This document shows, piece by piece, positions 23,297 through 52,335 of a stretch of DNA of 64,000 bases; positions within the stretch are counted from its first letter, which is position 1, and the number at the start of each line of letters is the position of its first letter. A program made the translations under genes and the position numbers. Origin of the DNA: a bacterium (GTDB lineage: Bacteria; Desulfobacterota; S145-22); contig JALSPC010000165.1 in NCBI GenBank assembly GCA_026986155.1, forward strand, positions 7,870-71,869, given 5' to 3'. Under the pieces are notes generated by a model. The model did no database searches and was not told where the DNA came from. It was given only the letters and a program-made list of their open reading frames with translations.

Positions 23297-24544
23297 GTGA
23301 GAGAGATCGTTATCATCGGCGGAGTTCGAACCCCAGTGGGAAGATACCTCGGCGCCCTGAGGGAGGTGGAGGCCTACGACCTGGCCGCCCTGGTTTTGAA
23401 CGAGGCGATCCGCCGCGCGGGAGTTGCCCCCGGCGCGGTGGACGAGGTCATCATGGGCCAGTCCTACCAGAGCGGGGAATATGTCAATATCGCGCGGATG
23501 GCCCTGCTCAAGGCGGGGTGGCCCGAGGAAATCCCAGGGGTGACCATCGACCGCCGGTGCTGCACGGGGCTGGACGTGGTCAAGATGGCCGCCGCCGTCA
23601 TCCAGGCGGAGCAGGCCGAGATCGTCGTGGCCGGCGGGGTGGAGTGCATGAGCCGCGCCGAGTTTTACCTTCCCGGGACCATCAAGTGGGGCGTGGGCGG
23701 AACGGGAGGGATGCCCAGGGGACACGGGGACCTATCCATCTGGGGCCTTCCTTTCTTTGACCGCATCCAGCGGGCACGCGTCATGTCACAGCCCGTAGAG
23801 CGGTTCGGCGTGCTTCCCTCCATGATGTCGTGGGCGGAGACCGCCGCGAGGGAGGAAGGTATTTCGAGGGAGGCGTGTGACCGGTGGGCGTTGGAAAGCC
23901 ACCGGAAGGCCTGCGCGGCGATGGAAGACGGGAAGTTCGACGAGGAAATCGTTCCGGTTCTTGTTCCGCATAAAAAGGGAGACCCGGAGATCTTCGGCAG
24001 GGACGAAACGCCCCGCCCCGATACCTCCCTTGAAAAGCTCGCGCGCCTGCGTCCCGTGCTGGGGGGGGTCTGCACGGCGGGGAACTCTTCCAGCGAGAAC
24101 GACGGGGCCGCGGCGGTGGTGGTGACGCACGCGGAGAAGGCCGCGGAGCTCGGCGTGGAACCCCTGGCCCATTTCCGGGCGTGCGCGGTGGCGGGAGCCG
24201 ACCCGAGAAAGGCCTACGAAACCGTTCCCCGCGCCGTTTCCAAGGCGCTGGCGATGACGGGCCTTTCCCTCGATGCCATCGAGCTCATCGAGATCCAGGA
24301 GGCCTTCGCAGCCCAGGTACTGGCAGACCTGAAGGGCATGGGGGTCGAACCCGGGGACTATCACAAGGTCAACGTGAATGGGTCGGGGATTTCGCTGGGG
24401 CATCCCATCGCCTGCACCGGGACCCGGGTGCTCGTAACCCTCCTGCACGAGATGCGCAGGCGCGGGACGCGGTTCGGCCTGGAGTGTATCTGCGGCGGCG
24501 GCGGACTGGGGATCGCCGCGATTCTCGAGCGAGAAACAACATGA
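23297..24544 (+). CDS. Thiolase family protein (acetyl-CoA C-acyltransferase-like)
   Basis: GTG start. Active-site Cys region DRRCCTGLD. C-terminal thiolase motif CICGGGGLG. Confidence 0.85.
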   Translation: MREIVIIGGVRTPVGRYLGALREVEAYDLAALVLNEAIRRAGVAPGAVDEVIMGQSYQSGEYVNIARMALLKAGWPEEIPGVTIDRRCCTGLDVVKMAAAVIQAEQAEIVVAGGVECMSRAEFYLPGTIKWGVGGTGGMPRGHGDLSIWGLPFFDRIQRARVMSQPVERFGVLPSMMSWAETAAREEGISREACDRWALESHRKACAAMEDGKFDEEIVPVLVPHKKGDPEIFGRDETPRPDTSLEKLARLRPVLGGVCTAGNSSSENDGAAAVVVTHAEKAAELGVEPLAHFRACAVAGADPRKAYETVPRAVSKALAMTGLSLDAIELIEIQEAFAAQVLADLKGMGVEPGDYHKVNVNGSGISLGHPIACTGTRVLVTLLHEMRRRGTRFGLECICGGGGLGIAAILERETT

Positions 24545-24564
24545 GATAATAAGGATAACTTACC

Positions 24565-25713
24565 TTGGATTTTGAACTTTCTGATGAACAAAAGGATATT
24601 ATCAGAGCCGCCAGGGAATTTGCCGAGGGGGAATTCCCCGCCTACGCGGACGAAGCGGACGCAACCGAGACGTTCCCGCGGCCCCTATGGAAAAAGGGGT
24701 GTGACCTGGGATTCGTCGGCGTGTTCTGGGACGAGGCCTACGGCGGTGCAGGGCTTGGATTTTTCGAGCATGCCCTCATTATGGAGGAATTCTGGCGCGT
24801 GGATCCCGGGTGCGGGCAGGCGGTACTCGGCGCGCTTTTTGGCTCCCAGATGATTCACCTCTTTGGCACGGAGGAACAGAAGCGCCGCTACCTTACGCCC
24901 CTCGCGAGGGGGGAGGCCATTATGGGTTCCGCCATCACCGAGCCTGACGCGGGAAGCGACGTGGCCTCCGGAACGACCCGCGCCGAATTGAAGGACGGCC
25001 GCTACGTCATCAACGGCAACAAGATGTTCATCTCCAATGGAAGCATCGCCGATTACATGACCGTCCTGTGCGTGACCCATCCCGAGGGGGAAAACCGGCA
25101 TCGCCGGCAGAGCGTCCTGATCGTGGAGACGGACCGGGAGGGATTTGAGGCGAACAAGTTGAAAGGAAAACTCGGCATCCGCGCCTCGGACACGGCGGAG
25201 GTCACCTTCAGCAACGTGGCTGTTCCCGCGGATCACATCGTCGGTGAACCGGGGCGGGGATTCTACCATTTCATGGAATTCTTCAACCATACCCGGATCC
25301 ATATCTGCGCCCAGGGGGTTGGGGTCGCCCAGGGAGCCCTGGAGCGGTCGATCCGCCACGTGAAAACGCGGCGGCAATTCGGGAGACCCCTGGGGAGTTT
25401 CCAGGCGATCCAGTTCAAGCTGGCGGAGATGGCGACACGGATAGAAGCGGCCCGCTCACTCTACTGGCGGGCGGGATGGAACATCGATCACGGCATCGTG
25501 GACCACCGACTGGTGGCCATGGCCAAGTGGTTTGCCGGGGAGGTCGGCGTTTACGTCACGAACGAGGCCCTGCAGATTCATGGGGGATACGGATATCTCA
25601 GGGAATACGGAATCGAACGCCTCTACCGGGACGCAAAGATCGTGGAGATCTACGAGGGCACTCGGGAGATCGAGAAGCTCATCGTGGCGAGAAACATCCT
25701 GGGAAGACTGTAA
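24565..25713 (+). CDS. Acyl-CoA dehydrogenase
   Basis: TTG start. 382 aa. Typical acyl-CoA dehydrogenase motifs (…TEPDAGSDVAS…, C-terminal YEGTREI…). Confidence 0.88.
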   Translation: MDFELSDEQKDIIRAAREFAEGEFPAYADEADATETFPRPLWKKGCDLGFVGVFWDEAYGGAGLGFFEHALIMEEFWRVDPGCGQAVLGALFGSQMIHLFGTEEQKRRYLTPLARGEAIMGSAITEPDAGSDVASGTTRAELKDGRYVINGNKMFISNGSIADYMTVLCVTHPEGENRHRRQSVLIVETDREGFEANKLKGKLGIRASDTAEVTFSNVAVPADHIVGEPGRGFYHFMEFFNHTRIHICAQGVGVAQGALERSIRHVKTRRQFGRPLGSFQAIQFKLAEMATRIEAARSLYWRAGWNIDHGIVDHRLVAMAKWFAGEVGVYVTNEALQIHGGYGYLREYGIERLYRDAKIVEIYEGTREIEKLIVARNILGRL

Positions 25714-25721
25714 CATCCGCG

Positions 25722-26714
25722 ATGATCACCCTGAAGAAACAGTCCAAGGTCATGAGCGCCCGGGAGGCGATCGCGGAATTCGTTCACGACGGGGATCTCA
25801 TCACCTTTGGCGGGTTTACCATCACGCGGAACCCCATGGGGTTGTGCCACGAAATCATCCGTCAGAATAAAAAGAACCTTCACGTAGCCGTCCATTCCCA
25901 GGGCCAGGCCTTTGATCTGCTCGTCGGGGCGGGGTGCGTGGCGGTCCTCGAGGTTGCCTACGGTGGCACGGCGCGTTTCTCTCCCGGCGGGGGGCCCTGC
26001 TTCAGGCGGGCGATCGAGAAGGGGCGGGTCCTATTCGAGGATTACACCAATTTCCAGATGACCCTTCGATTTCTGGCGGGGGCTATGGGGGTTCCCTTTC
26101 TGCCCCTGCGCGGATCGCTGGAGATCGACGTTGTAAAAAAATGGGGGATCCCTCCCGAGATCCGGCGGCGAAACCCGAAACTTACCAACGAAAAGATAGC
26201 CCTTGTGGAGAATCCTTTCAGTGAATCGGAAGAAAAAGAGACACTGGTTGCGGTTCCAGCTCTTCGTCCCGACGTGGCATTGATCCACGCCCAGCAGGCG
26301 GACCCGGAGGGGACGGTGAGATTCGGGGGCTTGACCTTTACCGACGTGGAGCAGGTAAAGGCCGCGGAAAGGGTCATCGTGAGCTGCGAGGAGCTGGTAG
26401 ACCCGGAAACGTTGCGGAAAGACCCCGTTCGGAACCAGGTTCCCTTCTTCCTGGTGAACGCCGTGGTTCCCATACCCTTTGGCGCGCATCCGACGGCCTG
26501 TTACGGCTACTACGACTACGACCCCGTCCACCTGAAGCGCTACGCGGAGGCGGCCAGGGAGGAAGCGTCGCTGAGGGAATACTTGAAGACCTACATCCAC
26601 GGGACGCGAGACCACGGGGAATATCTCGCCCTTATCGGCGACCAGGCCCTGGACAAGCTCCGGGCCGAACCGAGCGTGGGATACGCTCCCGGTCTCGACA
26701 GGAGCGGCCGATGA
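25722..26714 (+). CDS. CoA-transferase subunit A (glutaconate / 3-oxoacid CoA-transferase family)
   Basis: ATG at 25722, 9 nt after the acyl-CoA dehydrogenase stop. The longer ORF from 25476 overlaps the dehydrogenase and is rejected. Alpha-subunit-like sequence. Confidence 0.8.
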   Translation: MITLKKQSKVMSAREAIAEFVHDGDLITFGGFTITRNPMGLCHEIIRQNKKNLHVAVHSQGQAFDLLVGAGCVAVLEVAYGGTARFSPGGGPCFRRAIEKGRVLFEDYTNFQMTLRFLAGAMGVPFLPLRGSLEIDVVKKWGIPPEIRRRNPKLTNEKIALVENPFSESEEKETLVAVPALRPDVALIHAQQADPEGTVRFGGLTFTDVEQVKAAERVIVSCEELVDPETLRKDPVRNQVPFFLVNAVVPIPFGAHPTACYGYYDYDPVHLKRYAEAAREEASLREYLKTYIHGTRDHGEYLALIGDQALDKLRAEPSVGYAPGLDRSGR

Positions 26715-27466
26715 GGGAAGTCACGCCGAGGGAGCGGATGGTCCTGGCGGCGGCCCGCCGTATCCGCGACGGGGAGATCGTCTTTTGCGGCACGGGCATC
26801 TCCATGATCGCAGCCATGGCGGCCAAGCGGATTCACGCCCGAAGCAGTGTCATCTTTTTTGAGACGGGGGCCATCGACTCGCGTCTCGAGGAACTGCCGC
26901 TCTCTGTGGGTGATCCACGGGTCGTGACGGGGGCGAGCGTGGGAACGGGTCTGGTCGATTCCTTTGCCATCCTCCAGAATCCCCGCACGGCCTCGCGCGT
27001 GGTGGCCGTCCTGGGGGCGGCGCAGATCGACCCCTACGGGAATCTCAACTCCACCTGTATAGGGGATTACGCGCGTCCGAAGGTCCGTTTCCCTGGCAGC
27101 GGCGGGGCCAGCGACGCGGCGGTTTACGCGGCCAGGACCATCATCTTCATGCGCCTGGAGAAGCGGCGGTTCGTCGAGCGGCTGGACTACTTTTCGACAC
27201 CCGGCTGGAGGAACCCGGGCGGCGAGCCGTCACTGGCGCACGGCAGGCCGGAGGTGGTCATCACGGACGAGGGAACGTTCATGTTTAATGAAAGCTCACG
27301 CAGGATGTATCTTGCCTCCTACTTTCCAGGGAGTAGCCCGGAATCGATAGAGGATAAGGTGGGATTCGACATTGACACGGGTCGGGCCGTCGAGGAGCCT
27401 TCCCCTGCACACGAGTCCGTAGATCTTCTCCGGAAACATATTGACCCGCAGCATTTGATTCTGTAA
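26711..27466 (+). CDS. CoA-transferase subunit B
   Basis: ATGA overlap with subunit A. Beta-subunit-like (…IVFCGTGISMIAAMAAK…). Confidence 0.8.
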   Translation: MREVTPRERMVLAAARRIRDGEIVFCGTGISMIAAMAAKRIHARSSVIFFETGAIDSRLEELPLSVGDPRVVTGASVGTGLVDSFAILQNPRTASRVVAVLGAAQIDPYGNLNSTCIGDYARPKVRFPGSGGASDAAVYAARTIIFMRLEKRRFVERLDYFSTPGWRNPGGEPSLAHGRPEVVITDEGTFMFNESSRRMYLASYFPGSSPESIEDKVGFDIDTGRAVEEPSPAHESVDLLRKHIDPQHLIL

Positions 27467-27511
27467 AATGAAAATCAAAAGGGGTTAACATTTCACAAAG
27501 GAGGGAACATC

Positions 27512-28495
27512 ATGAAAAAGAAAGCGTTTTTGTTCAGTGTGTTGGCGGTTTGCTCTGTGGCATTGGTGGTCTCTGGAACGGCGTTTGCCGGTAAGTACAA
27601 CCGCAAGTTCCTCAAGATGGTATCGGGACCGGAGGGGGGCTCCTGGTATCCGCTGGGATCCGGCATCATGAAGCTGGTGGAGCAGGCCACGGGCATTTCC
27701 ACCTCCAACGGTCCTGGGGGCGGGGTCGGGAACTGCAAGGCCATTCAGCGGGGGAACGCGGATCTCGGATGGACCTATTCGCACACGGCCTACAATGCCT
27801 ACAACGGCAAGGGAAAGTTCAAGAAGCCCCATAAGAAACTGCGTTATCTCTGCTCCCTCTATCCGGGAATCTTCCAGGTGGCGGTGCCGAAAAAGAGTAA
27901 GATCTTTTCCTTCGCCGACCTGAAGGACAAGCGTATCGTTCCGGGTAAGGTGGGATTCACCGGGACGGCCATCGCGGAAGTGGTCCTCAAGGCCTACGGA
28001 ATTACCTTCGACAGCATCAAGAAGAACGGCGGGAAGGTGGACTTTGTGGGCTACGCCGACGCGGCGGCCCTGATGAAAGACGGGCACACGGACGCCTACA
28101 TGGCGGTGACCTCCTGCCCGCAGTCGACCATCATCGATCTCAACTTCCGCCCCGGCATTCGCTTCCTCGGCATCGACAAGGAACACATGAAGAAGGTGCT
28201 TGCACTTGAGCCCGGTCTCTTCGCCACTGTTATCCCGAAGACGGCCTACAAGGGCATGGACAAGGATGTTCCGACCGTAGGGACGGTGACCAGTATCGTG
28301 ATTTCTTCTGACGTGGAAGACGACGTAGCCTATGCCATCGTCAAGGCAATCTTCGAGCACCTGGACGAACTGGCCAAGATCAAAAAGAAGGCCATCTCCC
28401 AGGTCAGCCTGGAAAACGCCTTGCGCGGGTGCAAGATTCCTGTTCACCCGGGTGCCATGAAGTATTACACGGAAAAGGGCGTCAAGATAAAGTAA
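27512..28495 (+). CDS. TAXI-family TRAP transporter solute-binding protein
   Basis: AAGGAGGG RBS. Signal peptide. TAXI-type (Imm/TRAP-associated) periplasmic binding fold. Confidence 0.85.
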   Translation: MKKKAFLFSVLAVCSVALVVSGTAFAGKYNRKFLKMVSGPEGGSWYPLGSGIMKLVEQATGISTSNGPGGGVGNCKAIQRGNADLGWTYSHTAYNAYNGKGKFKKPHKKLRYLCSLYPGIFQVAVPKKSKIFSFADLKDKRIVPGKVGFTGTAIAEVVLKAYGITFDSIKKNGGKVDFVGYADAAALMKDGHTDAYMAVTSCPQSTIIDLNFRPGIRFLGIDKEHMKKVLALEPGLFATVIPKTAYKGMDKDVPTVGTVTSIVISSDVEDDVAYAIVKAIFEHLDELAKIKKKAISQVSLENALRGCKIPVHPGAMKYYTEKGVKIK

Positions 28496-28512
28496 GAAGC
28501 CTATCAATCGTG

Positions 28513-28546
28513 GGGCCCCTGGGTTTGTAATCCAAGGGCCCTTTTT
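28513..28546 (+). terminator. Candidate intrinsic terminator / attenuator between the TAXI binding protein and permease genes
   Basis: Imperfect GC stem (GGGCCCCTGG… / …CCAAGGGCCC) followed by TTTTT. Confidence 0.4.
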
Positions 28547-28573
28547 CCATCTTTCTTTAATAGGTTCACGGGA

Positions 28574-30541
28574 ATGCCCGTGGAATTTTTGCAGGAGGTG
28601 GCGTTGGCGGGAACGGTTGCCTACGAGGAAGAAAAGAATCCGACGATCTTACAGACCCTTTTCCGGGAGAAACCTCCCCATTACATTGTCGCGTTCTTCG
28701 CGGCCTCCCTGAGCATTTCCCTCTCCCTTTATCACCTGTTCATTTCTTACGCGGGGACGGTAGAGGCCCACGCCTTCCGATCGACGCACCTCGCCTTCGT
28801 GCTCGTCATCGCCTTCCTCATCAAGCCCCTGGGCAGGAAGACTTGGCGGGACCCCTACAAGTGGTATTCCTTCATCGATTTTATTCTCGTCGGGGCGGTC
28901 ATTGCCATCCAGGTTTACACCCTCTACGACATCGAGGCATTCATCTTTCGCCGGGGCGACCTGACGAACTGGGATATCTGGATGGGAACAGCCATGATCT
29001 TCATCCTCCTGGAGGCGACCAGAAGAACCGTCGGGTGGGCCATGGTGCTCATTTCCGGTTTTTTCCTCCTACACACCGCCTTTTCCAACCATTTCTTCTG
29101 GATCTTTTACGGCCCTCCCAACTCGTGGTTTACTATCGTCGATTATCTCTTCATGCGCGAGAACGGGATTTACGGCATCCCTCTCATGGTTATGGCGACC
29201 TATATCTTTCTCTTCATTCTCTTCGGGGCTATCCTGATGGAATCGGGGGCGGGAAAATTCTTCATCAACCTGGCCCTCGCGCTTACGGGGAGCCGGCGCG
29301 GCGGTCCCGCCAAGGCCTCTATCGTATCCAGCGCCTTGATGGCGACAGTCTCCGGAAGCGCCGTGGCCAACGTGGTCACGACGGGCACGTTTACCATCCC
29401 CCTCATGAAAAAGATAGGCTACCGCCCCCGGTTTGCCGCCGCCGTGGAGGCCTGTTCCTCCAGCGGAGGCCAGATTATGCCGCCGGTCATGGGAGCGGCT
29501 GCCTTCATCATCGCCGAGTTCCTCTCAATCCCCTACCTGAAGGTCTGCCTCGCGGCCTTCTTTCCCGCCATCCTCTACTTTTTCTCCATCTTTGTCATGG
29601 TGCATTTCGAGGCCGCGAAACACGATCTTGCCATGCTGGAAAAGGATGAGCTTCCCAACGCGAAGGAGGAGCTGAAACGGGGAGGACACCTATTCATCTC
29701 CCTCGCCGTCATCATCGGACTGCTGGTGGTGGGATACACGCCCATGTACGCGGCGTTCTGGGCCATCGTTTCCGTCCTGGTCTTGAGCTTTATCAAGAAG
29801 GAGACGCGCATGACGCCCCAGCGTCTTCTGTCGGCACTGGAGGACGGGGCGACCAAGGCCATTCCCGTGTCCATCGCGTGCGCCTGTGCCGGCATCATCA
29901 TCGGATCCGTCTTCGTTTCCGGCCTTGGGCTCAAGTTTACCAACCTCATCGTGACCATCGCGGCGGGAAGGCTCTGGATGGCCCTGTTTCTTACCATGAT
30001 TGCCTCCCTGATCCTGGGCATGGGCCTGACCACGACGGCGGTCTACATCACCGTGGCGGCCCTGGTGATTCCCGCTTTGGTCAAGATGGGCGTGGAGCCC
30101 ATCGCAGCGCACCTCTTCGCCTTCTATTTCGGCTTGGTGTCCGCCATCACTCCGCCGGTGGCTCTGGCGGCCTTCGCCGCGGCCGGAATCGCCGGATCCA
30201 ATCCCATGGAGACGGGGTTTTCCTCTTTTCGACTGGGAATTGCCAAGTATATCCTTCCCTTCGTTTTCGTTTACGGCCCGGGGCTGGTCTTCGTGGGCTC
30301 GTGGATCGACATCTTTCGGGCGATCGTGGCGACGACTCTGGGACTGTTCGCCCTGACTGTCGTCACGGAGGGTTGGCTCTATGGCCATGTTAACCTTGGG
30401 GCAAGGATCCTGATGTTCATTCCATCGGTTTTCCTCTTCCTGCCCCACATCCATTACAATTTGCTTGGAGTAGTTATCTTTGTGATTTTGGTTGTTTACT
30501 TGAAGAAAAAGAGCCGCCGGTCCGCGGCTTACACCACGTGA
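28574..30541 (+). CDS. TRAP transporter fused permease (TAXI-associated DctQM-like)
   Basis: 655 aa polytopic membrane protein. Fused small and large TRAP permease arrangement typical of TAXI systems. Confidence 0.85.
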   Translation: MPVEFLQEVALAGTVAYEEEKNPTILQTLFREKPPHYIVAFFAASLSISLSLYHLFISYAGTVEAHAFRSTHLAFVLVIAFLIKPLGRKTWRDPYKWYSFIDFILVGAVIAIQVYTLYDIEAFIFRRGDLTNWDIWMGTAMIFILLEATRRTVGWAMVLISGFFLLHTAFSNHFFWIFYGPPNSWFTIVDYLFMRENGIYGIPLMVMATYIFLFILFGAILMESGAGKFFINLALALTGSRRGGPAKASIVSSALMATVSGSAVANVVTTGTFTIPLMKKIGYRPRFAAAVEACSSSGGQIMPPVMGAAAFIIAEFLSIPYLKVCLAAFFPAILYFFSIFVMVHFEAAKHDLAMLEKDELPNAKEELKRGGHLFISLAVIIGLLVVGYTPMYAAFWAIVSVLVLSFIKKETRMTPQRLLSALEDGATKAIPVSIACACAGIIIGSVFVSGLGLKFTNLIVTIAAGRLWMALFLTMIASLILGMGLTTTAVYITVAALVIPALVKMGVEPIAAHLFAFYFGLVSAITPPVALAAFAAAGIAGSNPMETGFSSFRLGIAKYILPFVFVYGPGLVFVGSWIDIFRAIVATTLGLFALTVVTEGWLYGHVNLGARILMFIPSVFLFLPHIHYNLLGVVIFVILVVYLKKKSRRSAAYTT

Positions 30542-30553
30542 GGGGGGGAAGGT

Positions 30554-30742
30554 ATGAAGCGAAAAATCGTATCCTGGTTTCCATTGATTCTATGGGTTGT
30601 CCTGTTCTACTTCATCGCCGTTTACCACGTGGCGAGCATCCACTACAATCTCTTCCTGCTTTCACTGATTGCGTCTGCGTTTCTCATCGTGGGGATCTAC
30701 GTTTTGGGGTCGAAAAGACCGACAGGGAAGGACGGCGTTTAG
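30554..30742 (+). CDS. Small two-TM membrane protein (62 aa) downstream of the TRAP permease
   Basis: GGAAGG RBS 3 nt before ATG 30554. Two hydrophobic helices. Low certainty. Confidence 0.4.
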   Translation: MKRKIVSWFPLILWVVLFYFIAVYHVASIHYNLFLLSLIASAFLIVGIYVLGSKRPTGKDGV

Positions 30743-31167
30743 GCCACGCCAGCGCGGTGTTTTGGGTTCGTCAACTCTTCGATCAAAGATACCAGCTGTG
30801 TGATACGAAAGGGTTTTTTCAGGAAGTTCAGGGTAGGGGAAAGGTTGTTTTTCAGGGTGAGGGCCGCATCTTTCCCCTCGGCCTCCCGGCTCGCGTCGAA
30901 CCAGCCGCTGATAAAGAGGATGGGCATTGTAGGATCCAGGTCGTGGATTTCCTTTGCCATCTGAAAGCCGTTTTTGCGCGGCATGCGGATATCCGCGATG
31001 ACAAGATCGATTTCCTTTTCTTTCTTGAAAACTTCGATGCCTTCTTCGCCATCTCGGGCCTGAATGATTTCGTAGCCCTTGAATTCGAGGATTTCAACGA
31101 GCATGTTGCGAAAGAGGGGATCGTCGTCCACAACGAGGAGTCTTTTCGGCATGGTGCTTTTTTCCAT
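30739..31167 (-). CDS. Single-domain CheY-like response regulator
   Basis: …KRLLVVDDDPLF…DLVIADIRMP…FISGW…KP… receiver signatures. Start at 31167 (MEKST…) or 31152 (MPKRLL…). Lies immediately downstream of the MEMO1-AMMECR1 gene. Confidence 0.75.
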   Translation of the reverse strand: MEKSTMPKRLLVVDDDPLFRNMLVEILEFKGYEIIQARDGEEGIEVFKKEKEIDLVIADIRMPRKNGFQMAKEIHDLDPTMPILFISGWFDASREAEGKDAALTLKNNLSPTLNFLKKPFRITQLVSLIEELTNPKHRAGVA

Positions 31168-31168
31168 T

Positions 31169-32572
31169 TCAAAAGATATCCGCGGAGAAGACGTAGATCT
31201 TCGCGTCCGGGTCCTTATAGGCCATGGGATGGAGGCCCGCCTTGAGACAGGTCTGCTGCAGGAACTCTTCCCGGTTCCACCCGTATTCCGTGGCAACCTG
31301 GGGGAGAAGCAACCCTGAGTAGAGGCCTTTTTGGATGTAGAGGCCGTGGGTGCCTACCTGGATCTCAGACAGGTCCGCAATCTCCTTGAAAGGGGTGAGC
31401 GCGGAGATCTCTATCTCGACGGACGGCCATTCATCTTTGGTAAGCGGAGGGAATCTCGGGTCCTGGAAGGCGGCAGCCACGGCCATCTCCTGGACGGAGG
31501 CGGCCAGGGGTTTGACGGGCTGGATCAGACCGATGCAGCCCCGCAGGTACCCGTTTTTCGTGAGGGTAACGAAGGCGCCCCGGGTTTCCTCGAGGGTGGG
31601 TGTGAGCGGGGGAAGGGGCGGCATGGGTTTGCCTTCCAGCCTGCTCTCGATGGCTTCCCGCGCGATGGTGTGGAGGATCCGTTTCTCTTCATCCGTCAGA
31701 CCCAGATCAACCCCGACCTTTTTGCCTGATTTTCCATCTTCAGGTTTGAAAAAGACGGCGGACAGGTATCCTACCACGGCCTGGCGGTCTCCCGTAATGT
31801 CCCCGGAGTTCGCGTAGGCCAGAACCTTGGCGCTCGTGGCCCCCAAGGCGCGGGCCGTGAGCATGGCGGTGATCATGGGCCCGCCGCCGCAAGCCTCGGC
31901 CTTTCCCGAGTTGAGAACCTCGTGCAGCCCCGCCGGATCAAAACGATCCAGGGCTTCAGCCACCCGCGCGTCCAGCTTTCGTGCCTCCCCGTCGGGATGG
32001 TAGTGGGAGAGGTCGGAGCTGGCCACCACGAGGGCCTTTTTCCCCTCGAGAACCTGGGTAAGCGCCGCTTTCAATCGCTCACACGTGGCATAGTCCTGGG
32101 ATCCCATCACGATGGGCAGGAGCCTGAACTCGGCAAGCGCCCTTTGGAGGAAGGGCACCTGAACCTCGAGGGCGTGTTCCTGCTCGTGGACCTGGGGATG
32201 GAACTGGATAACAGGATCCTGCGCCATCAGGGCCTCGCAGGCCTCCCGGTCCACACGGGCCGTGCCGAGAGGCGTGAGGTAATCCCCCGCGGCGTAGACC
32301 GAGGCCCCCTTGAAATAGGCACGGTGGCTCGGCGAGATGACCACCACGAGGTCGTAACGGTTGCCTCGGACGGTTTTATAGCCGTAGGCGGCGATTTGCC
32401 CGGAATAGATGTATCCCGCGTGGGGACTGACGAGCGCGAGGATCTCTCCTTCAACGGGGGGAGGGTCGGCGTTTTCCAGAAAGGTGTCGATCTGCGCGGA
32501 GAGTTCATCGGGCGCACCGGGGTAGAACATCCCGGCCACGGCCGGCCGCCTGTCTCTCTTGATCTTTTCCAT
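31169..32572 (-). CDS. Fused MEMO1-like (AmmeMemoRadiSam protein B) and AMMECR1 (protein A) domain protein
   Basis: N-terminal half carries …HAGYIYSGQIAAYGY… (MEMO1). C-terminal half carries …RGCIGLIQP… (AMMECR1). GGGAGGTG RBS. Confidence 0.8.
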   Translation of the reverse strand: MEKIKRDRRPAVAGMFYPGAPDELSAQIDTFLENADPPPVEGEILALVSPHAGYIYSGQIAAYGYKTVRGNRYDLVVVISPSHRAYFKGASVYAAGDYLTPLGTARVDREACEALMAQDPVIQFHPQVHEQEHALEVQVPFLQRALAEFRLLPIVMGSQDYATCERLKAALTQVLEGKKALVVASSDLSHYHPDGEARKLDARVAEALDRFDPAGLHEVLNSGKAEACGGGPMITAMLTARALGATSAKVLAYANSGDITGDRQAVVGYLSAVFFKPEDGKSGKKVGVDLGLTDEEKRILHTIAREAIESRLEGKPMPPLPPLTPTLEETRGAFVTLTKNGYLRGCIGLIQPVKPLAASVQEMAVAAAFQDPRFPPLTKDEWPSVEIEISALTPFKEIADLSEIQVGTHGLYIQKGLYSGLLLPQVATEYGWNREEFLQQTCLKAGLHPMAYKDPDAKIYVFSADIF

Positions 32573-33142: not shown

Positions 33143-35233
33143 CTATTCCTCTTCCGCCGCCTGCTTCTGCGCCACGATCTTGTCCTTGAGGTGGGCGGGG
33201 ACCTCCTCGTAGTGAGAGAACTCCATGGTGAAGTTCCCGCGCCCCCCCGTCATGGACCGCAGGTCCGGGGCGTATTTGAGGACCTCCGCCATGGGCACCA
33301 GGGCTTTGACAATCTGGTATTTCCCCTTGGAGTCCATGCCCAGGACCTTGCCCCTCCGGCTGTTGATGTCGCCCATGATATCCCCGAGGTTTTCTTCGGG
33401 TGTGATAATTTCCATCTTCATGATGGGCTCGAGCAGGATGGGACTGGCTTCCTGGACTCCCTTCTTGAAACACATGGACGCGGCGATCTTGAACGCCATC
33501 TCCGAGGAGTCGACCTCGTGGGACTTTCCGTCGTAGAAACGGACCTTGACGTCCACGACCGGATACCCCGCCACAACGCCGCTGGCCATGGCCTCCAGGA
33601 TTCCCTTTTCCACCGCCGGGACGAACCCGCGGGGAACGTTCATTCCCGTCAGGGCGTTTTCGAACTCGAAGCCCTTGCCGCGGGGCAGGGGAGAGATATC
33701 GAAATGGACCTCGGCGAACTGTCCATGCCCTCCGGTCTGCTTCTTGTGGCGGTAAATGACGCCCTTGGCAGTTTTCTTAATGGTTTCTTTATAAGGGACC
33801 TTGGGGATGCTCAAATCCACTTCCACCCCGAACTTCCGTTTCATCTTTTCCAGGGTTGTTTCGATGTGCAACTGTCCCATCCCCGTGATGAGGATTTCGC
33901 GGGTTTGCTCGTCACGGCCCAACTGGATGGTGAGATCCTCTTCCATCAGGCGCTGGAGGGACGAGGCGACCTTGTCTTCGTCTCCCCGAGACTTGGGCCT
34001 GAGGGCGAAGGTAATCATGGGGTTGGGGAGCCTGGCGGGCTCGTAGACAATGGGATCTCCCTCGTCGCAGAAGGTATCTCCCGTGGTGGTTTCCTTTAGT
34101 TTGGCCACGGCGATCAGCTCACCCACCGAGGCGGACCCGACCCCTTCTTGTTTCTTGCCGACGAGGCGGAAGATCTGTCCGATGCGCTCCTTCGCGTCCT
34201 TGGTGACATTGTAGAGGGTGGTATCGGCTTGGACCGTTCCGGAATAGACCCGAAAGATGGTAAGTCGTCCCGCGAAGGGATCACTGATGGTTTTGAAGAC
34301 GAATGCGGAAAAGGGGGCGTCCGGGCTCGGTTCACGGGTGATCTCTTCATCCGTTCCCGGTTTTTTGCCCTTGACGGGACCCCGGTCGATGGGCGAGGGG
34401 AGGGCGGCTGTTACCAGGTCGATGAGATGTGAAATCCCGATGTTTTTTGCGGCGGAACCGCAAAGGACGGGAACGAACTGACGTTCACACGTTCCTTTCT
34501 TGAGGCAGCCGAGGAGCTCCTCGTCGGTTAGTTCGTTGCCTTCCAGGTATTTCTCCATCAGTTCGTCGTCGGCTTCCACGAGGGCCTCCACCATCCGTTC
34601 CCGGAACGTGGCGACCGTGTCCGTAAACTCCTCGGGAACATCCTGTTTTTCGAACTTGCCGGACGCGTCATCAGAGAAGATATAGGCCTCCCGGGACAAA
34701 AGATCGACGAAGCCCTTGAAGTCGGATTCCTTCCCGATGGGGTAGACGAGGGGCACCATGCGCGTGCCCTTGAAGTTAGCCTCCAGGTCCTCGAGCGCGG
34801 ATTCAAAGTTCGATCGTTCCGCATCCATCCGGTTGATGAAGACGACCCTTGGAATTTCGTATTCGTCGGCGAAGTCCCAGACGGTGCTGGTCTGAACCTT
34901 GACGCCGTCGTTGGCCGAGACAACCACCACGGCCCCGTCCACGACCCGCATGCAGGCCTTGGTATCCCCGATGAAGTTGGCGTAACCGGGGGTGTCGATC
35001 CAGTAAACGAGGTGACTGTTCCATGGGAAATTGGCGATGGAGGCGAGAATGGAGCCCCCGCGTTTGATTTCTTCCGGCTCGAAGTCCATCAGGGAGGTTC
35101 CGTCATCCACTCTTCCAAGCCGGGTGTTGACGCCCGAAAGAAAGAGGGCGGCTTCCGTTATCGAGGTCTTTCCGTCTCCCCCGTGTCCAATGATCGCGAT
35201 GGTCCTGATGAATTCCGTGTCAACACTTTTCAT
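33143..35233 (-). CDS. Elongation factor G paralog (EF-G family translational GTPase)
   Basis: G-domain motifs (AIIGHGGDGKTS, DTPG, NRMD). 696 aa with EF-G domains II-V. Confidence 0.88.
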   Translation of the reverse strand: MKSVDTEFIRTIAIIGHGGDGKTSITEAALFLSGVNTRLGRVDDGTSLMDFEPEEIKRGGSILASIANFPWNSHLVYWIDTPGYANFIGDTKACMRVVDGAVVVVSANDGVKVQTSTVWDFADEYEIPRVVFINRMDAERSNFESALEDLEANFKGTRMVPLVYPIGKESDFKGFVDLLSREAYIFSDDASGKFEKQDVPEEFTDTVATFRERMVEALVEADDELMEKYLEGNELTDEELLGCLKKGTCERQFVPVLCGSAAKNIGISHLIDLVTAALPSPIDRGPVKGKKPGTDEEITREPSPDAPFSAFVFKTISDPFAGRLTIFRVYSGTVQADTTLYNVTKDAKERIGQIFRLVGKKQEGVGSASVGELIAVAKLKETTTGDTFCDEGDPIVYEPARLPNPMITFALRPKSRGDEDKVASSLQRLMEEDLTIQLGRDEQTREILITGMGQLHIETTLEKMKRKFGVEVDLSIPKVPYKETIKKTAKGVIYRHKKQTGGHGQFAEVHFDISPLPRGKGFEFENALTGMNVPRGFVPAVEKGILEAMASGVVAGYPVVDVKVRFYDGKSHEVDSSEMAFKIAASMCFKKGVQEASPILLEPIMKMEIITPEENLGDIMGDINSRRGKVLGMDSKGKYQIVKALVPMAEVLKYAPDLRSMTGGRGNFTMEFSHYEEVPAHLKDKIVAQKQAAEEE

Positions 35234-47713: not shown

Positions 47714-52335
<4,622 letters not shown>

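What the first reader, a model, noticed from the sequence alone, without database searches (positions are those of the whole stretch)
23297..30742. Thiolase / acyl-CoA dehydrogenase / two-subunit CoA-transferase module directly coupled to a TAXI-TRAP transporter
Seen in sequence:
- Five co-directional genes (thiolase, acyl-CoA dehydrogenase, CoA-transferase A and B with overlapping or 9-nt junctions) are followed after 45 nt by a TAXI binding protein, a fused TRAP permease and a small 2-TM protein.

Established knowledge:
- Glutaconate-type CoA-transferases together with an acyl-CoA dehydrogenase and thiolase form beta-oxidation-like routes for dicarboxylic or alicyclic acids in anaerobes.
- TAXI-TRAP systems are the least characterised TRAP class and have very few known substrates.

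Inference:
- Genetic linkage predicts that the TAXI transporter imports the organic acid activated by the CoA-transferase (for example a C5-C7 dicarboxylate or cyclohexane-carboxylate-type compound). This would give a substrate assignment for an orphan TAXI system.
Basis: partly seen in the sequence, partly recalled or inferred. Interest (0 to 1): 0.5.

Follow-up and report, generated by a model that had tools for sequence, protein, structure and literature searches.

The report
CoA-transferase operon with TAXI-TRAP importer
An uncultured sulfate-reducer-type bacterium carries a real operon in which an uncharacterised TAXI-type uptake system sits directly behind a glutaconate-type CoA-transferase, a pairing conserved in related bacteria; this narrows what the transporter imports to a small non-amino organic acid, most likely glutarate-like, but does not prove it.

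Summary
At 23297-30742 (+) lie a thiolase, an acyl-CoA dehydrogenase (ACAD), CoA-transferase subunits A and B, a TAXI binding protein, a fused TRAP permease and a 62-aa 2-TM protein. That is four catabolic genes, not five.

The conserved core is gctAB plus TAXI-TRAP. The same order recurs in relatives with about 60% GctA and 67% TAXI identity. In a further Gct clade a DctPQM TRAP transporter occupies the same slot after gctB, beside a glutaconyl-CoA decarboxylase subunit.

The substrate proposal is only partly supported. GctB keeps its catalytic Glu. The ACAD is a generic short-chain (Bcd-like) enzyme, not a glutaryl-CoA or cyclohexanecarboxyl-CoA dehydrogenase, and its linkage, like the thiolase's, is lineage-specific. 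The TAXI pocket lacks the residues that bind the amino group of glutamate.

My best guess is a C5 dicarboxylate of the glutarate, glutaconate or 2-hydroxyglutarate type (about 0.45). C4-C6 (hydroxy)monocarboxylates come second (about 0.3). Alicyclic acids are unlikely.

One addition: the small 2-TM protein is conserved and translationally coupled in this TAXI clade across two phyla.

Overall this is a new member of a known kind, of moderate interest.

The parts
23297..24544 (+). Thiolase (acetyl-CoA C-acyltransferase), 415 aa, a long form with an internal insertion
   Evidence: PF00108 and PF02803; TIGR01930 scores 388.7 against 240.55. The best PDB matches are acetoacetyl-CoA thiolases at about 1e-87. 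It is 58-59% identical to the 419-421-aa thiolases that follow a CoA-transferase or ligase near TAXI orthologues in L112 and L115. The catalytic Cys (RRCCTG), His (GHP) and Cys (CICGGGG) were read from the sequence.
24565..25713 (+). Short-chain (Bcd/SCAD-like) acyl-CoA dehydrogenase, 382 aa, TTG start
   Evidence: Three ACAD domains. No NCBIfam equivalog cut-off is reached: AcrC 379 against 640, GlutCoADH_Des 283 against 470, cyclohexane-1-carbonyl-CoA dehydrogenase 267 against 650. The best PDB matches are T. thermophilus ACAD 1ukw and A. fermentans Bcd 4l1f at about 290-300 bits; Desulfococcus GDH 3mpi gives 221 and CHC-CoA dehydrogenase 7xp7 gives 165. The catalytic Glu364 is conserved. 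The Arg of the SSS[IL]RVQ motif is replaced (DPGCGQAV).
25722..26714 (+). Gct-family (family I) CoA-transferase subunit A, 330 aa
   Evidence: PF01144. 1poi_A glutaconate CoA-transferase gives E 2.7e-68 and 38.9% identity. This is much stronger than the matches to AibA (1e-31) and IpdA (1e-27).
26711..27466 (+). Gct-family CoA-transferase subunit B, 251 aa, with the catalytic glutamate
   Evidence: 1poi_B gives E 5.8e-61 and 44% identity. E51 (FFETG) aligns with the ESG glutamate of A. fermentans GctB, whereas the decarboxylase AibB has Asn at that position. A 4-nt ATGA overlap with subunit A suggests translational coupling.
27512..28495 (+). TAXI-family TRAP solute-binding protein, 327 aa, with an N-terminal signal peptide
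   Evidence: TIGR02122 scores 247.8 against 84.35; PF16868. PDB: TtGluBP 1us4 at 6.6e-41 and VcGluP 8s4j at 3e-33. The positions equivalent to the VcGluP ligand residues differ (S75 to G71, Q93 to Y89, E125 to G119, Y200 to A198) and are invariant across all Desulfobacterota orthologues.
28574..30541 (+). Fused TRAP (Q-M) permease of the TAXI type, 655 aa
   Evidence: TIGR02123 scores 687.6 against 320.65; PF06808 at 1.5e-99. It is 67-93% identical in all loci that carry the TAXI orthologue.
30554..30742 (+). Conserved 62-aa two-helix membrane protein, a candidate accessory subunit of this TAXI-TRAP clade
   Evidence: No Pfam or NCBIfam match. An equivalent 55-75-aa ORF overlaps or closely follows the permease stop in every orthologous locus with enough sequence, including SAR116 and other Alphaproteobacteria. 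It has an invariant Trp and a [YF]-N-x-F motif. dN/dS is 0.13-0.23 among close relatives.
27441..27469 (+). Sigma-70-like promoter match (TTGACC-17-TAAAAT) at the end of gctB, upstream of the TAXI gene; weak evidence only
   Evidence: It matches 10 of 12 positions, but the region holds 6 such sites against 3.6 +/- 1.9 expected from shuffles, so it is not significant.

Best explanation
This is an uptake-and-activation operon for a small non-amino organic acid in an uncultured Thermodesulfobacteriota bacterium.

Proposed mechanism:
1. The periplasmic TAXI protein captures the acid. The fused TRAP permease, probably together with the conserved 62-aa hairpin protein, imports it using an ion gradient.
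2. The two-subunit Gct-family CoA-transferase, through its beta-subunit glutamate (E51), moves CoA from acetyl-CoA or succinyl-CoA onto the acid.
3. The resulting acyl-CoA enters the crotonyl-, butyryl- and acetoacetyl-CoA trunk. There the Bcd-like ACAD and the thiolase act, yielding acetyl-CoA.

Shown by computation: the gene identities, the catalytic residues, and the conserved gctAB-transporter synteny.
Inferred: the direction of flux, the CoA donor and the substrate.

The conserved functional unit is gctAB plus the transporter. Thiolase and ACAD are lineage-specific additions.

My single best guess for the substrate is a C5 dicarboxylate of the glutarate, glutaconate or 2-hydroxyglutarate type. 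The dehydrogenase, dehydratase and decarboxylase steps to crotonyl-CoA would then be encoded elsewhere in the genome.

Probabilities: functional coupling of transporter and transferase about 0.85; C5 dicarboxylate about 0.45.
For: Coupling:
- All seven genes are syntenic in four related MAGs (L004-L007).
- The order gctA-gctB-TAXI-permease is kept in 7 of 9 informative loci of a sister clade (L008, L028, L029, L032, L034, L036, L040).
- The two units are divergent in L111 and in the same 10-kb neighbourhood in L112.
- In L061 and L083 the position after gctB holds DctP-DctQ-DctM instead of TAXI, next to OAD_beta/GcdB. This is a non-orthologous displacement of the transporter.

The transferase is genuine:
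- It is 39% and 44% identical to A. fermentans GctAB, and the catalytic Glu is retained.

Leaning towards a C5 dicarboxylate:
- The only characterised transferase of the family uses glutaconate, glutarate and 2-hydroxyglutarate (established knowledge).
- Neighbouring Gct clades sit beside equivalog-level glutaryl-CoA dehydrogenase Acd (L085 scores 792 against 470) and GcdB.
- One TAXI orthologue (L010, 74% identical) lies directly behind an Acd scoring 743 against 470.
- No charged residue conserved in the Acd/GcdB-linked clade plus A. fermentans is changed in the TAXI-linked clade.
- Characterised TAXI ligands are glutamate, glutamine, 2-oxoglutarate and 2-hydroxyglutarate (PMC11574862, PMC12344293).
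- A SAR116 homologue faces an itaconate-like set: lyase, family III CoA-transferase and hydratase.
- GlcD/CCG and 2-oxoacid:ferredoxin oxidoreductase genes recur beside orthologues.
- Gct, Bcd, thiolase and Hbd together form the lower part of the A. fermentans hydroxyglutarate pathway (established knowledge); its Bcd, 4l1f, is the second-best PDB match of the ACAD.

Not an amino acid:
- The residues that bind the glutamate amino group in VcGluP (Q93, E125) are Y89 and G119 here.
Against: - The window ACAD is not a glutaryl-CoA dehydrogenase: 283 against 470, and no Arg motif.
- No gcd, hgd, etf, crotonase or hbd gene lies in the 64 kb, so the route from a C5-CoA ester to crotonyl-CoA is unseen.
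- The TAXI-linked GctB clade is separate from the Acd/GcdB-linked clades on the NJ tree.
- TAXI orthologues with an identical pocket also occur without gctAB, next to GntR, 3HCDH, BKACE and Zn-ADH (L023, L026, L027, L114, L115). This fits beta-hydroxy or beta-keto acids at least as well.
- The pocket is rich in aromatic and Gly residues and has only one conserved Lys.
- No regulator is present in the window, and there are no expression data.
- Only 19 genome loci and 80 metagenome loci were sampled.
Confidence: 0.45

Rival explanations
1. The architecture is the same, but the substrate is a C4-C6 monocarboxylate: butyrate, crotonate, 3-hydroxybutyrate, acetoacetate or a longer 3-hydroxyalkanoate. 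The TAXI system imports it and GctAB makes the CoA ester. The Bcd-like ACAD oxidises butyryl-CoA, or a 3-hydroxy acid is oxidised to the beta-keto acid. The thiolase then cleaves acetoacetyl-CoA.
For: - The ACAD belongs to a generic short-chain orthogroup. Its closest structures are 1ukw, A. fermentans Bcd and C. difficile Bcd, and its orthologues sit alone near enoyl-CoA hydratases.
- TAXI orthologues with an identical pocket are followed directly by a 3HCDH gene (L010, L027, L112, L115).
- They also lie near BKACE (L026, L027, L112) and near 'CoA-transferase or AMP/ADP-forming ligase plus long thiolase' pairs, as in ato- or sco-type acetoacetate use.
- The pocket is lined with W, Y, F, A, V and G.
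- A Psychrobacter TAXI mutant was impaired on butyrate and acetate (cited in PMC11574862).
Against: - No Gct-family enzyme is known to act on acetoacetate or butyrate (A. fermentans Gct does take propionate and acrylate; established knowledge).
- An Acd glutaryl-CoA dehydrogenase sits next to the L010 orthologue.
- GcdB and DctPQM flank gctAB in L061 and L083.
- The OFOR and GlcD/CCG neighbours are unexplained by this reading.
- No charged-residue change distinguishes the TAXI-linked Gct clade.
Confidence: 0.3
2. The transporter imports 2-oxoglutarate or 2-hydroxyglutarate, as the Proteus TAXI does. GctAB does not activate the imported acid. Instead it passes CoA on from the product acyl-CoA, for example succinyl-CoA made by a 2-oxoacid:ferredoxin oxidoreductase, to acetate or another acid.
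For: - In the sister clade gctAB is followed by a hexapeptide-repeat protein and a five-subunit 2-oxoacid:ferredoxin oxidoreductase with a GltD-like subunit, with or without the TAXI cassette (L033, L034, L035, L108-L110).
- OFOR and GlcD/CCG genes flank TAXI orthologues (L023, L027, L112, L115).
- PmTAXI binds 2-oxoglutarate and 2-hydroxyglutarate (PMC12344293).
Against: - The window has no OFOR, GlcD or hexapeptide gene in 64 kb.
- ACAD and thiolase have no role in this scheme.
- In L061 and L083 the Gct-TRAP pair sits with GcdB, which points to direct activation of a glutaconate-type acid.
Confidence: 0.12
3. One reading: the module degrades an alicyclic or C7 acid (cyclohexanecarboxylate, pimelate) imported by the TAXI system.
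For: Only the general precedent that CoA-transferase, ACAD and thiolase occur in such pathways. The ACAD gives sub-threshold hits to cyclohexanecarbonyl-CoA dehydrogenase models.
Against: - Those hits are far below their cut-offs: 267 against 650, 214 against 575, and pimeloyl-CoA dehydrogenase 135 against 653 and 94 against 624.
- PDB 7xp7 gives 165 bits against about 300 for short-chain ACADs.
- No second dehydrogenase, ring hydrolase or hydratase lies in the window or in any of the related loci examined.
- The known cyclohexanecarboxylate CoA-transferase is not of the Gct type (my knowledge).
Confidence: 0.03
4. The transporter and the catabolic genes are merely neighbours with unrelated functions. 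The thiolase and ACAD would be housekeeping genes next to an independent TAXI-TRAP unit with its own promoter.
For: - A promoter-like match lies just upstream of the TAXI gene.
- TAXI orthologues occur without gctAB (L023, L026, L027, L114, L115), and gctAB orthologues occur without TAXI (L033, L035, L108-L110).
- ACAD orthologues stand alone.
Against: - The gctAB-TAXI adjacency recurs across lineages in three different arrangements, and with a different TRAP subtype in the same slot.
- The promoter match is not above the shuffle expectation.
Confidence: 0.1

Closest known systems
Glutaconate CoA-transferase GctAB of Acidaminococcus fermentans (PDB 1POI)
   Same: A two-subunit family I (Gct-family) CoA-transferase with similar subunit sizes. 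Identity is 38.9% for subunit A and 44% for subunit B. The beta-subunit catalytic Glu is conserved.
   Different: A. fermentans falls outside all the environmental clades on the GctB tree. Here the enzyme is not next to hgdCAB or gcdA but is followed by a TAXI-TRAP transporter. Substrates are untested.
AibAB (Myxococcus 3-methylglutaconyl-CoA decarboxylase, 5MZW) and IpdAB (Mycobacterium ring-opening hydrolase, 6CO6)
   Same: The same Gct-like fold and two-subunit organisation. The matches are weaker: 1e-31 and 1e-15 for AibAB, 1e-27 and 1e-7 for IpdAB.
   Different: AibB has Asn where the window protein and Gct have the catalytic Glu. The window enzyme should therefore be a true transferase, not a decarboxylase or hydrolase.
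Characterised TAXI-TRAP systems: VcGluP (VC0430), TtGluBP (1US4), the Proteus mirabilis 2-oxoglutarate/2-hydroxyglutarate TAXI, and the Azoarcus orthophthalate TAXI
   Same: A TAXI binding protein plus a single fused permease (TIGR02122, TIGR02123). Identity to the solved glutamate binders is about 30%.
   Different: Almost every ligand-contacting position of VcGluP is changed. The operon carries an extra conserved 2-TM protein that is absent from the three glutamate-type loci examined (L021, L022, L074). It is linked to a CoA-transferase, not to amino-acid genes.
gcdB-gctA-gctB-dctPQM loci in sediment metagenomes (L061, L083) and gctAB-iclR-acd loci (L064, L081, L084, L085, L087, L089)
   Same: A Gct-family transferase about 50-55% identical, immediately followed by a binding-protein-dependent TRAP transporter. 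The operon logic is the same.
   Different: These have a DctP-type rather than a TAXI-type transporter. They are linked to glutaconyl-CoA decarboxylase and to bona fide glutaryl-CoA dehydrogenase, both missing from the window. They are themselves uncharacterised.
Transporter plus CoA-transferase plus thiolase operons: E. coli atoDAEB and Pseudomonas pcaIJF (from my knowledge, not tested here)
   Same: The same logic: an acid is taken up, activated by a two-subunit family I CoA-transferase, and the 3-oxoacyl-CoA is cleaved by a thiolase.
   Different: Those transferases belong to the 3-oxoacid (OXCT/Ato) family, to which the window proteins match only at E about 1e-6. Their transporters are not TRAP systems.

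Membership tests
Gct-family (family I) CoA-transferase | Two separate subunits, A of about 320 aa and B of about 260 aa, both of the CoA_trans fold | tested here: met
   330 aa and 251 aa. PF01144 hits at 9e-29 and 5e-24. 1poi_A at 2.7e-68 and 1poi_B at 5.8e-61.
Gct-family (family I) CoA-transferase | Catalytic glutamate in the beta subunit, which forms the enzyme-CoA thioester | tested here: met
   E51 in FFETG aligns with the Glu of the ESG motif in 1poi_B. AibB has Asn at that position.
Gct-family (family I) CoA-transferase | CoA transfer to glutaconate, glutarate or (R)-2-hydroxyglutarate | not testable with these tools
   This needs an enzyme assay. Only indirect context evidence is available.
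Non-decarboxylating glutaryl-CoA dehydrogenase (Acd) | Reaches the NCBIfam equivalog NF045552 cut-off of 470 bits | tested here: not met
   The window ACAD scores 283 bits. Controls score well above the cut-off: L010 743 and L085 792.
Non-decarboxylating glutaryl-CoA dehydrogenase (Acd) | Arg in the SSS[IL]RVQ motif, taken as the binding site for the distal carboxylate | tested here: not met
   The window ACAD and its orthologues have DPGCG(Q/L)(A/S)V at these columns. The role of the Arg comes from my knowledge of glutaryl-CoA dehydrogenase structures.
Cyclohexanecarboxyl-CoA / cyclohexane-1-carbonyl-CoA dehydrogenase | Reaches the NCBIfam equivalog cut-offs (NF043006 650; TIGR03207 575) | tested here: not met
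   267 and 214 bits. PDB 7xp7 gives only 165 bits.
Butyryl-CoA / short-chain acyl-CoA dehydrogenase type | Three ACAD domains, a catalytic Glu in the C-terminal YEG motif, and closest similarity to Bcd/SCAD structures | tested here: met
   (E364 is invariant). No equivalog model is reached, however: AcrC scores 379 against 640.
Butyryl-CoA / short-chain acyl-CoA dehydrogenase type | Adjacent etfAB genes, as in bifurcating Bcd-Etf complexes | tested here: not met
   No Etf genes were found among the annotated ORFs of the 64-kb window. They could lie elsewhere in the genome.
TAXI-TRAP transporter | A TAXI binding protein (TIGR02122) plus a single fused permease (TIGR02123) | tested here: met
   247.8 against 84.35 and 687.6 against 320.65.
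Glutamate-specific TAXI (VcGluP/TtGluBP type) | Ligand residues S75, Q93, E125 and Y200 (VcGluP numbering) | tested here: not met
   The equivalent residues are G71, Y89, G119 and A198. All are invariant in the orthogroup.
Complete beta-oxidation module | Enoyl-CoA hydratase and 3-hydroxyacyl-CoA dehydrogenase encoded alongside the ACAD and thiolase | tested here: not met
   Neither is in the cluster or elsewhere in the window.
Thiolase | TIGR01930 cut-off reached and the Cys/His/Cys catalytic residues present | tested here: met
   388.7 against 240.55. The residues were read from the translation.

The most novel reading that the evidence does not exclude
This TAXI-TRAP clade, defined by a PEGGSWY / GGGV / GKVGF pocket signature, may be a distinct subclass with two unusual features. 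First, it may need a third membrane component: a 55-75-aa two-helix hairpin protein with an invariant Trp and a [YF]-N-x-F motif, translationally coupled to the permease and conserved from Desulfobacterota to SAR116 Alphaproteobacteria. Second, it may serve CoA-transferase-initiated catabolism of a substrate class not yet assigned to any TAXI system, such as glutarate/glutaconate-type or 3-hydroxy acids.
Probability: 0.35. Interest if true: 0.55.

Novelty: new member of a known kind. Interest (0 to 1): 0.4.

Why it matters
TAXI-TRAP transporters are widespread, yet only a handful of ligands are known: glutamate, glutamine, 2-oxoglutarate, 2-hydroxyglutarate and orthophthalate.

This study defines a large TAXI orthogroup in Desulfobacterota.
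- Its predicted binding pocket is invariant.
- It recurs beside Gct-type CoA-transferases.
- The realistic ligand list is short: glutarate-type C5 dicarboxylates or C4-C6 (hydroxy)acids. It can be screened with one purified protein.

A confirmed ligand would annotate over a thousand environmental homologues. It would also clarify how sediment anaerobes scavenge low-concentration fermentation acids.

The conserved small membrane protein could be an overlooked TAXI subunit, which would matter for structural work on these transporters.

Nothing here overturns current understanding. It is a useful lead that can be tested.

Tried and rejected
- RNA features. No tRNA and no Rfam family occur in the window.
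- Companion enzymes in the window. I looked for Etf, hydratase, Hbd, Gcd, Hgd, OFOR, BKACE and a regulator. None was found.
- The ACAD as glutaryl-CoA, cyclohexanecarboxyl-CoA or pimeloyl-CoA dehydrogenase. Rejected on family cut-offs and on the missing Arg motif.
- The transferase as an AibAB-like decarboxylase or an IpdAB-like hydrolase. Rejected because the catalytic Glu is present and similarity to 1POI is far higher.
- The TAXI protein as a glutamate binder. Rejected on pocket residues.
- Specificity-determining residues in GctA and GctB. Contrasting the Acd/GcdB-linked clade with the TAXI-linked clade gave only nine small, uncharged differences, so the test was uninformative.
- A 2-hydroxyacyl-CoA dehydratase reading of the 1404-aa BcrAD_BadFG-DUF2229 protein upstream of sister-clade gctAB. 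No HGD-D domain was found, so it remains only a lead.
- A lactate/acrylate-pathway reading, based on AcrC as the top ACAD hit and LUD-domain neighbours. It does not explain the thiolase, 3HCDH or Acd neighbours.
- A phmmer search with the 62-aa protein against 1.8 billion representatives. It found only 5 hits, so the family is visible only through synteny.
- Literature. I found no paper that links glutaconate CoA-transferase with a TRAP or TAXI system.
- Promoter and terminator scans. The counts were not above shuffle expectation.

Full report
**1. Observation**

The interval 23297-30742 holds seven tightly packed + strand genes. The independent gene calls on the source contig are identical. 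That contig is ENA ERZ27262668 k141_547103, and its nearest genome hits are uncultured Thermodesulfobacteriota MAGs.

The seven genes:
- Thiolase, 23297-24544.
- Acyl-CoA dehydrogenase (ACAD), 24565-25713, TTG start.
- CoA-transferase subunit A, 25722-26714.
- CoA-transferase subunit B, 26711-27466.
- TAXI binding protein, 27512-28495.
- Fused TRAP permease, 28574-30541.
- A 62-aa two-helix protein, 30554-30742.

The junctions, in order, are 20 nt, 8 nt, a 4-nt overlap, 45 nt, 78 nt and 12 nt.

The flanks are housekeeping genes. Upstream and co-directional are mfd and two SurA-like genes. Downstream and convergent are a CheY-like receiver, a Memo-AMMECR1 fusion, a Dtd-like gene and an EF-G paralogue. 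GC content is unremarkable.

There is no regulator, Etf, hydratase, 3-hydroxyacyl-CoA dehydrogenase, glutaconyl-CoA decarboxylase or 2-hydroxyacyl-CoA dehydratase anywhere in the 64 kb.

**2. What the parts are**

CoA-transferase. It is much closer to Acidaminococcus glutaconate CoA-transferase than to the non-transferase relatives. 1POI gives 2.7e-68 and 5.8e-61, with 38.9% and 44% identity. AibAB gives 1e-31 and 1e-15, and IpdAB gives 1e-27 and 1e-7. The beta-subunit glutamate is present: E51 in FFETG aligns with the ESG motif of GctB, whereas AibB has Asn there. It should be an active family I, Gct-type CoA-transferase.

ACAD. It reaches no curated equivalog cut-off:
- AcrC, 379 against 640.
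- Glutaryl-CoA dehydrogenase Acd, 283 against 470.
- Cyclohexane-1-carbonyl-CoA dehydrogenase, 267 against 650.
- Cyclohexanecarboxyl-CoA dehydrogenase, 214 against 575.

Its best structural relatives are short- and medium-chain enzymes: 1ukw, A. fermentans Bcd 4l1f and C. difficile Bcd, at 277-300 bits. Desulfococcus glutaryl-CoA dehydrogenase gives 221 and 7xp7 gives 165.

I aligned it with Acd enzymes that do pass the equivalog threshold (L010 743, L085 792). It lacks their SSS[IL]RVQ arginine motif but keeps the catalytic Glu364. Orthologues at 66-75% identity in other lineages stand alone among unrelated genes, near an enoyl-CoA hydratase. It is therefore a generic short-chain ACAD.

Thiolase. 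It is a 415-aa long form. It is 58-59% identical to thiolases that follow a CoA-transferase or an AMP-forming ligase near TAXI orthologues in L112 and L115.

**3. Is the linkage meaningful?**

- All seven genes are syntenic in four related MAGs (L004-L007) and in L069.
- A sister clade has about 60% GctA and 65-69% TAXI identity. There gctA-gctB-TAXI-permease is kept in L008, L028, L029, L032, L034, L036 and L040.
- In that same clade, L033, L035 and L108-L110 have gctAB followed directly by a hexapeptide-repeat protein and a five-subunit 2-oxoacid:ferredoxin oxidoreductase. The transporter therefore behaves as a cassette inserted after gctB.
- In L111 the two units are divergent. In L112 they share a 10-kb island.
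- The GctB neighbour-joining tree groups all these sequences into one clade, apart from the clades linked to Acd or GcdB.
- In L061 and L083, which belong to another Gct clade (about 50% identity), the order is gcdB-gctA-gctB-dctP-dctQ-dctM. A different TRAP subtype fills the same slot. This is the strongest evidence that the transporter supplies the transferase.

Thiolase and ACAD are joined to this core only in the window's own lineage.

**4. What might the substrate be?**

I mapped the VcGluP ligand residues (PMC11574862) onto the window protein:

| VcGluP residue | Window residue |
|---|---|
| S75 | G71 |
| Q93 | Y89 |
| E125 | G119 |
| Y200 | A198 |
| Y45 | W45 |

The NPGSG loop becomes KVGFT. 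The two residues that hold the amino group of glutamate are therefore gone.

These positions are invariant in all Desulfobacterota orthologues, whatever their neighbours. The neighbourhoods can therefore be pooled. Beside gctAB, the pooled neighbours are:
- GntR/FCD regulators.
- A 3HCDH gene directly after the small ORF.
- BKACE.
- Zn-ADH.
- A hexapeptide-repeat protein.
- OFOR with a GltD-like subunit.
- GlcD/CCG.
- Long thiolases.
- Once, a bona fide Acd directly upstream (L010).

A SAR116 homologue (48% identical) faces an operon of HMGL-like lyase, family III CoA-transferase, hydratase and PrpF. That set resembles itaconate or citramalate catabolism.

Two readings fit.

(a) A C5 dicarboxylate of the glutarate, glutaconate or 2-hydroxyglutarate type.
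- It matches the known Gct substrates.
- It matches the Acd, GcdB and DctPQM contexts of neighbouring Gct clades, and L010.
- It matches the known TAXI ligands, all of which except orthophthalate have a C5 dicarboxylate skeleton (PMC11574862, PMC12344293).
- Gct, Bcd, Hbd and thiolase together form the lower hydroxyglutarate pathway (established knowledge).
- No charged residue differs between the Acd/GcdB-linked and the TAXI-linked Gct clades.

(b) A C4-C6 (hydroxy or oxo) monocarboxylate such as butyrate, 3-hydroxybutyrate or acetoacetate.
- It matches the generic short-chain ACAD.
- It matches the 3HCDH and BKACE neighbours.
- It matches the 'activation plus thiolase' pairs.
- It matches the aromatic, glycine-rich pocket.

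I rank (a) at about 0.45 and (b) at about 0.3. Alicyclic or C7 acids have no positive evidence (about 0.03).

**5. The small protein**

A 55-75-aa ORF overlaps the permease stop by 4 nt or follows it within about 12 nt. It is present in every orthologous locus with sequence downstream, including SAR116 and other Alphaproteobacteria. It is absent in the three glutamate-type TAXI loci at hand.

The alignment shows two hydrophobic helices, an invariant Trp at the start of helix 1 and a [YF]-N-x-F motif at the start of helix 2.

dN/dS among close relatives is 0.13-0.23 where dS is not saturated.

It matches no Pfam or NCBIfam model. A single-sequence search of 1.8 billion representatives finds only five relatives. 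The TAXI papers I read describe a single fused membrane component and do not mention such a protein. It is a credible but untested accessory subunit.

**6. Comparison with known systems, and verdict**

Each part belongs to a known family, as the membership table shows. The operon logic of importer, family I CoA-transferase and thiolase is familiar from the ato- and pca-type operons (my knowledge).

What is new is the specific pairing of a Gct-type transferase with an uncharacterised TAXI orthogroup that is common in Desulfobacterota: 1157 homologues at E no greater than 1e-3, with the top 120 at 66-100% identity.

The proposed beta-oxidation-like route for dicarboxylic or alicyclic acids is only partly supported.

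This is a new member of a known kind. It carries a well-defined biochemical test and a side observation, the small subunit, that could be of independent interest. Interest: 0.4.

Noticed in passing
L029, L034, L036, L040; L033, L035, L108-L110: A recurrent 'superlocus' occurs in sediment Desulfobacterota. Its order is MFS, gctA, gctB, an optional TAXI-permease-small cassette, a hexapeptide-repeat (gamma-CA/PaaY-like) protein, an optional Bcd-like ACAD, then a five-subunit 2-oxoacid:ferredoxin oxidoreductase with a GltD-like subunit. It is often preceded by a 1404-aa BcrAD_BadFG-DUF2229 protein, an Fe-S protein and a LUD-domain protein. Its pathway is unknown.
   Followed up: partly
L061 577-5484; L083 300-7844: These loci read iclR(-), OAD_beta (glutaconyl-CoA decarboxylase beta-like), gctA, gctB, dctP, dctQ, dctM. 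This looks like a predicted glutaconate/glutarate uptake and activation module with a DctP-type TRAP. Other loci (L064, L081, L084, L085, L087, L089) have gctAB next to equivalog-level glutaryl-CoA dehydrogenase Acd, with an iclR in between in L064, L084 and L085.
   Followed up: partly
L016 3645-13250 (SAR116 single-cell genome): A TAXI-permease-small ORF unit (48-52% identical to the window's) is divergent from an operon of HMGL-like lyase, family III CoA-transferase, enoyl-CoA hydratase, an Iso_dh-family dehydrogenase, PrpF and AbrB. That set resembles itaconate/citramalate-type C5 dicarboxylate catabolism.
   Followed up: partly
L112 6932-20681; L115 4937-20156; L027 3470-15983: TAXI orthologues sit in islands with GntR/FCD, a 3HCDH gene directly after the small ORF, BKACE (the best model, Kce, scores 306 against a cut-off of 382), a DAO-family oxidase, Zn-ADH, and IclR plus a CoA-transferase or AMP-forming ligase plus a long thiolase plus a hexapeptide protein. 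This suggests a beta-hydroxy or beta-keto acid route that releases acetoacetate.
   Followed up: partly
window 31169-32572 (-): One 467-aa gene fuses a Memo-like domain to an AMMECR1 domain; these two components of the AmmeMemoRadiSam system are usually separate. A single-domain CheY-like receiver gene lies immediately downstream (about 30739-31152, -). Its stop codon overlaps the stop of the small TAXI-associated ORF.
   Followed up: no
window 33143-35233 (-): A stand-alone 696-aa EF-G paralogue, not in a str operon context, with a D-Tyr-tRNA deacylase-like gene between it and the Memo-AMMECR1 gene (gene calls).
   Followed up: no
window 50080-52326 (-): A 748-aa peroxidase-family (PF00141) protein lies beside a ComEC-like competence gene in what is presumably a strict anaerobe.
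   Followed up: no
L010 2591-3612: The TAXI gene of this Deltaproteobacteria MAG, the one directly behind an Acd glutaryl-CoA dehydrogenase, is split into two overlapping ORF fragments. This is either a frameshift, an assembly error or a pseudogene.
   Followed up: no
L034 9501-10373: An IS200-like (Y1 transposase) gene sits between the ACAD and the OFOR genes of the sister-clade locus. This hints that these catabolic islands are rearranged by mobile elements.
   Followed up: no
L067 262-3214: A gctA homologue is followed directly by a 655-aa fused TAXI-type permease (DctM plus DUF3394, 38% identical). No gctB and no binding-protein gene lie in between on this short contig.
   Followed up: no
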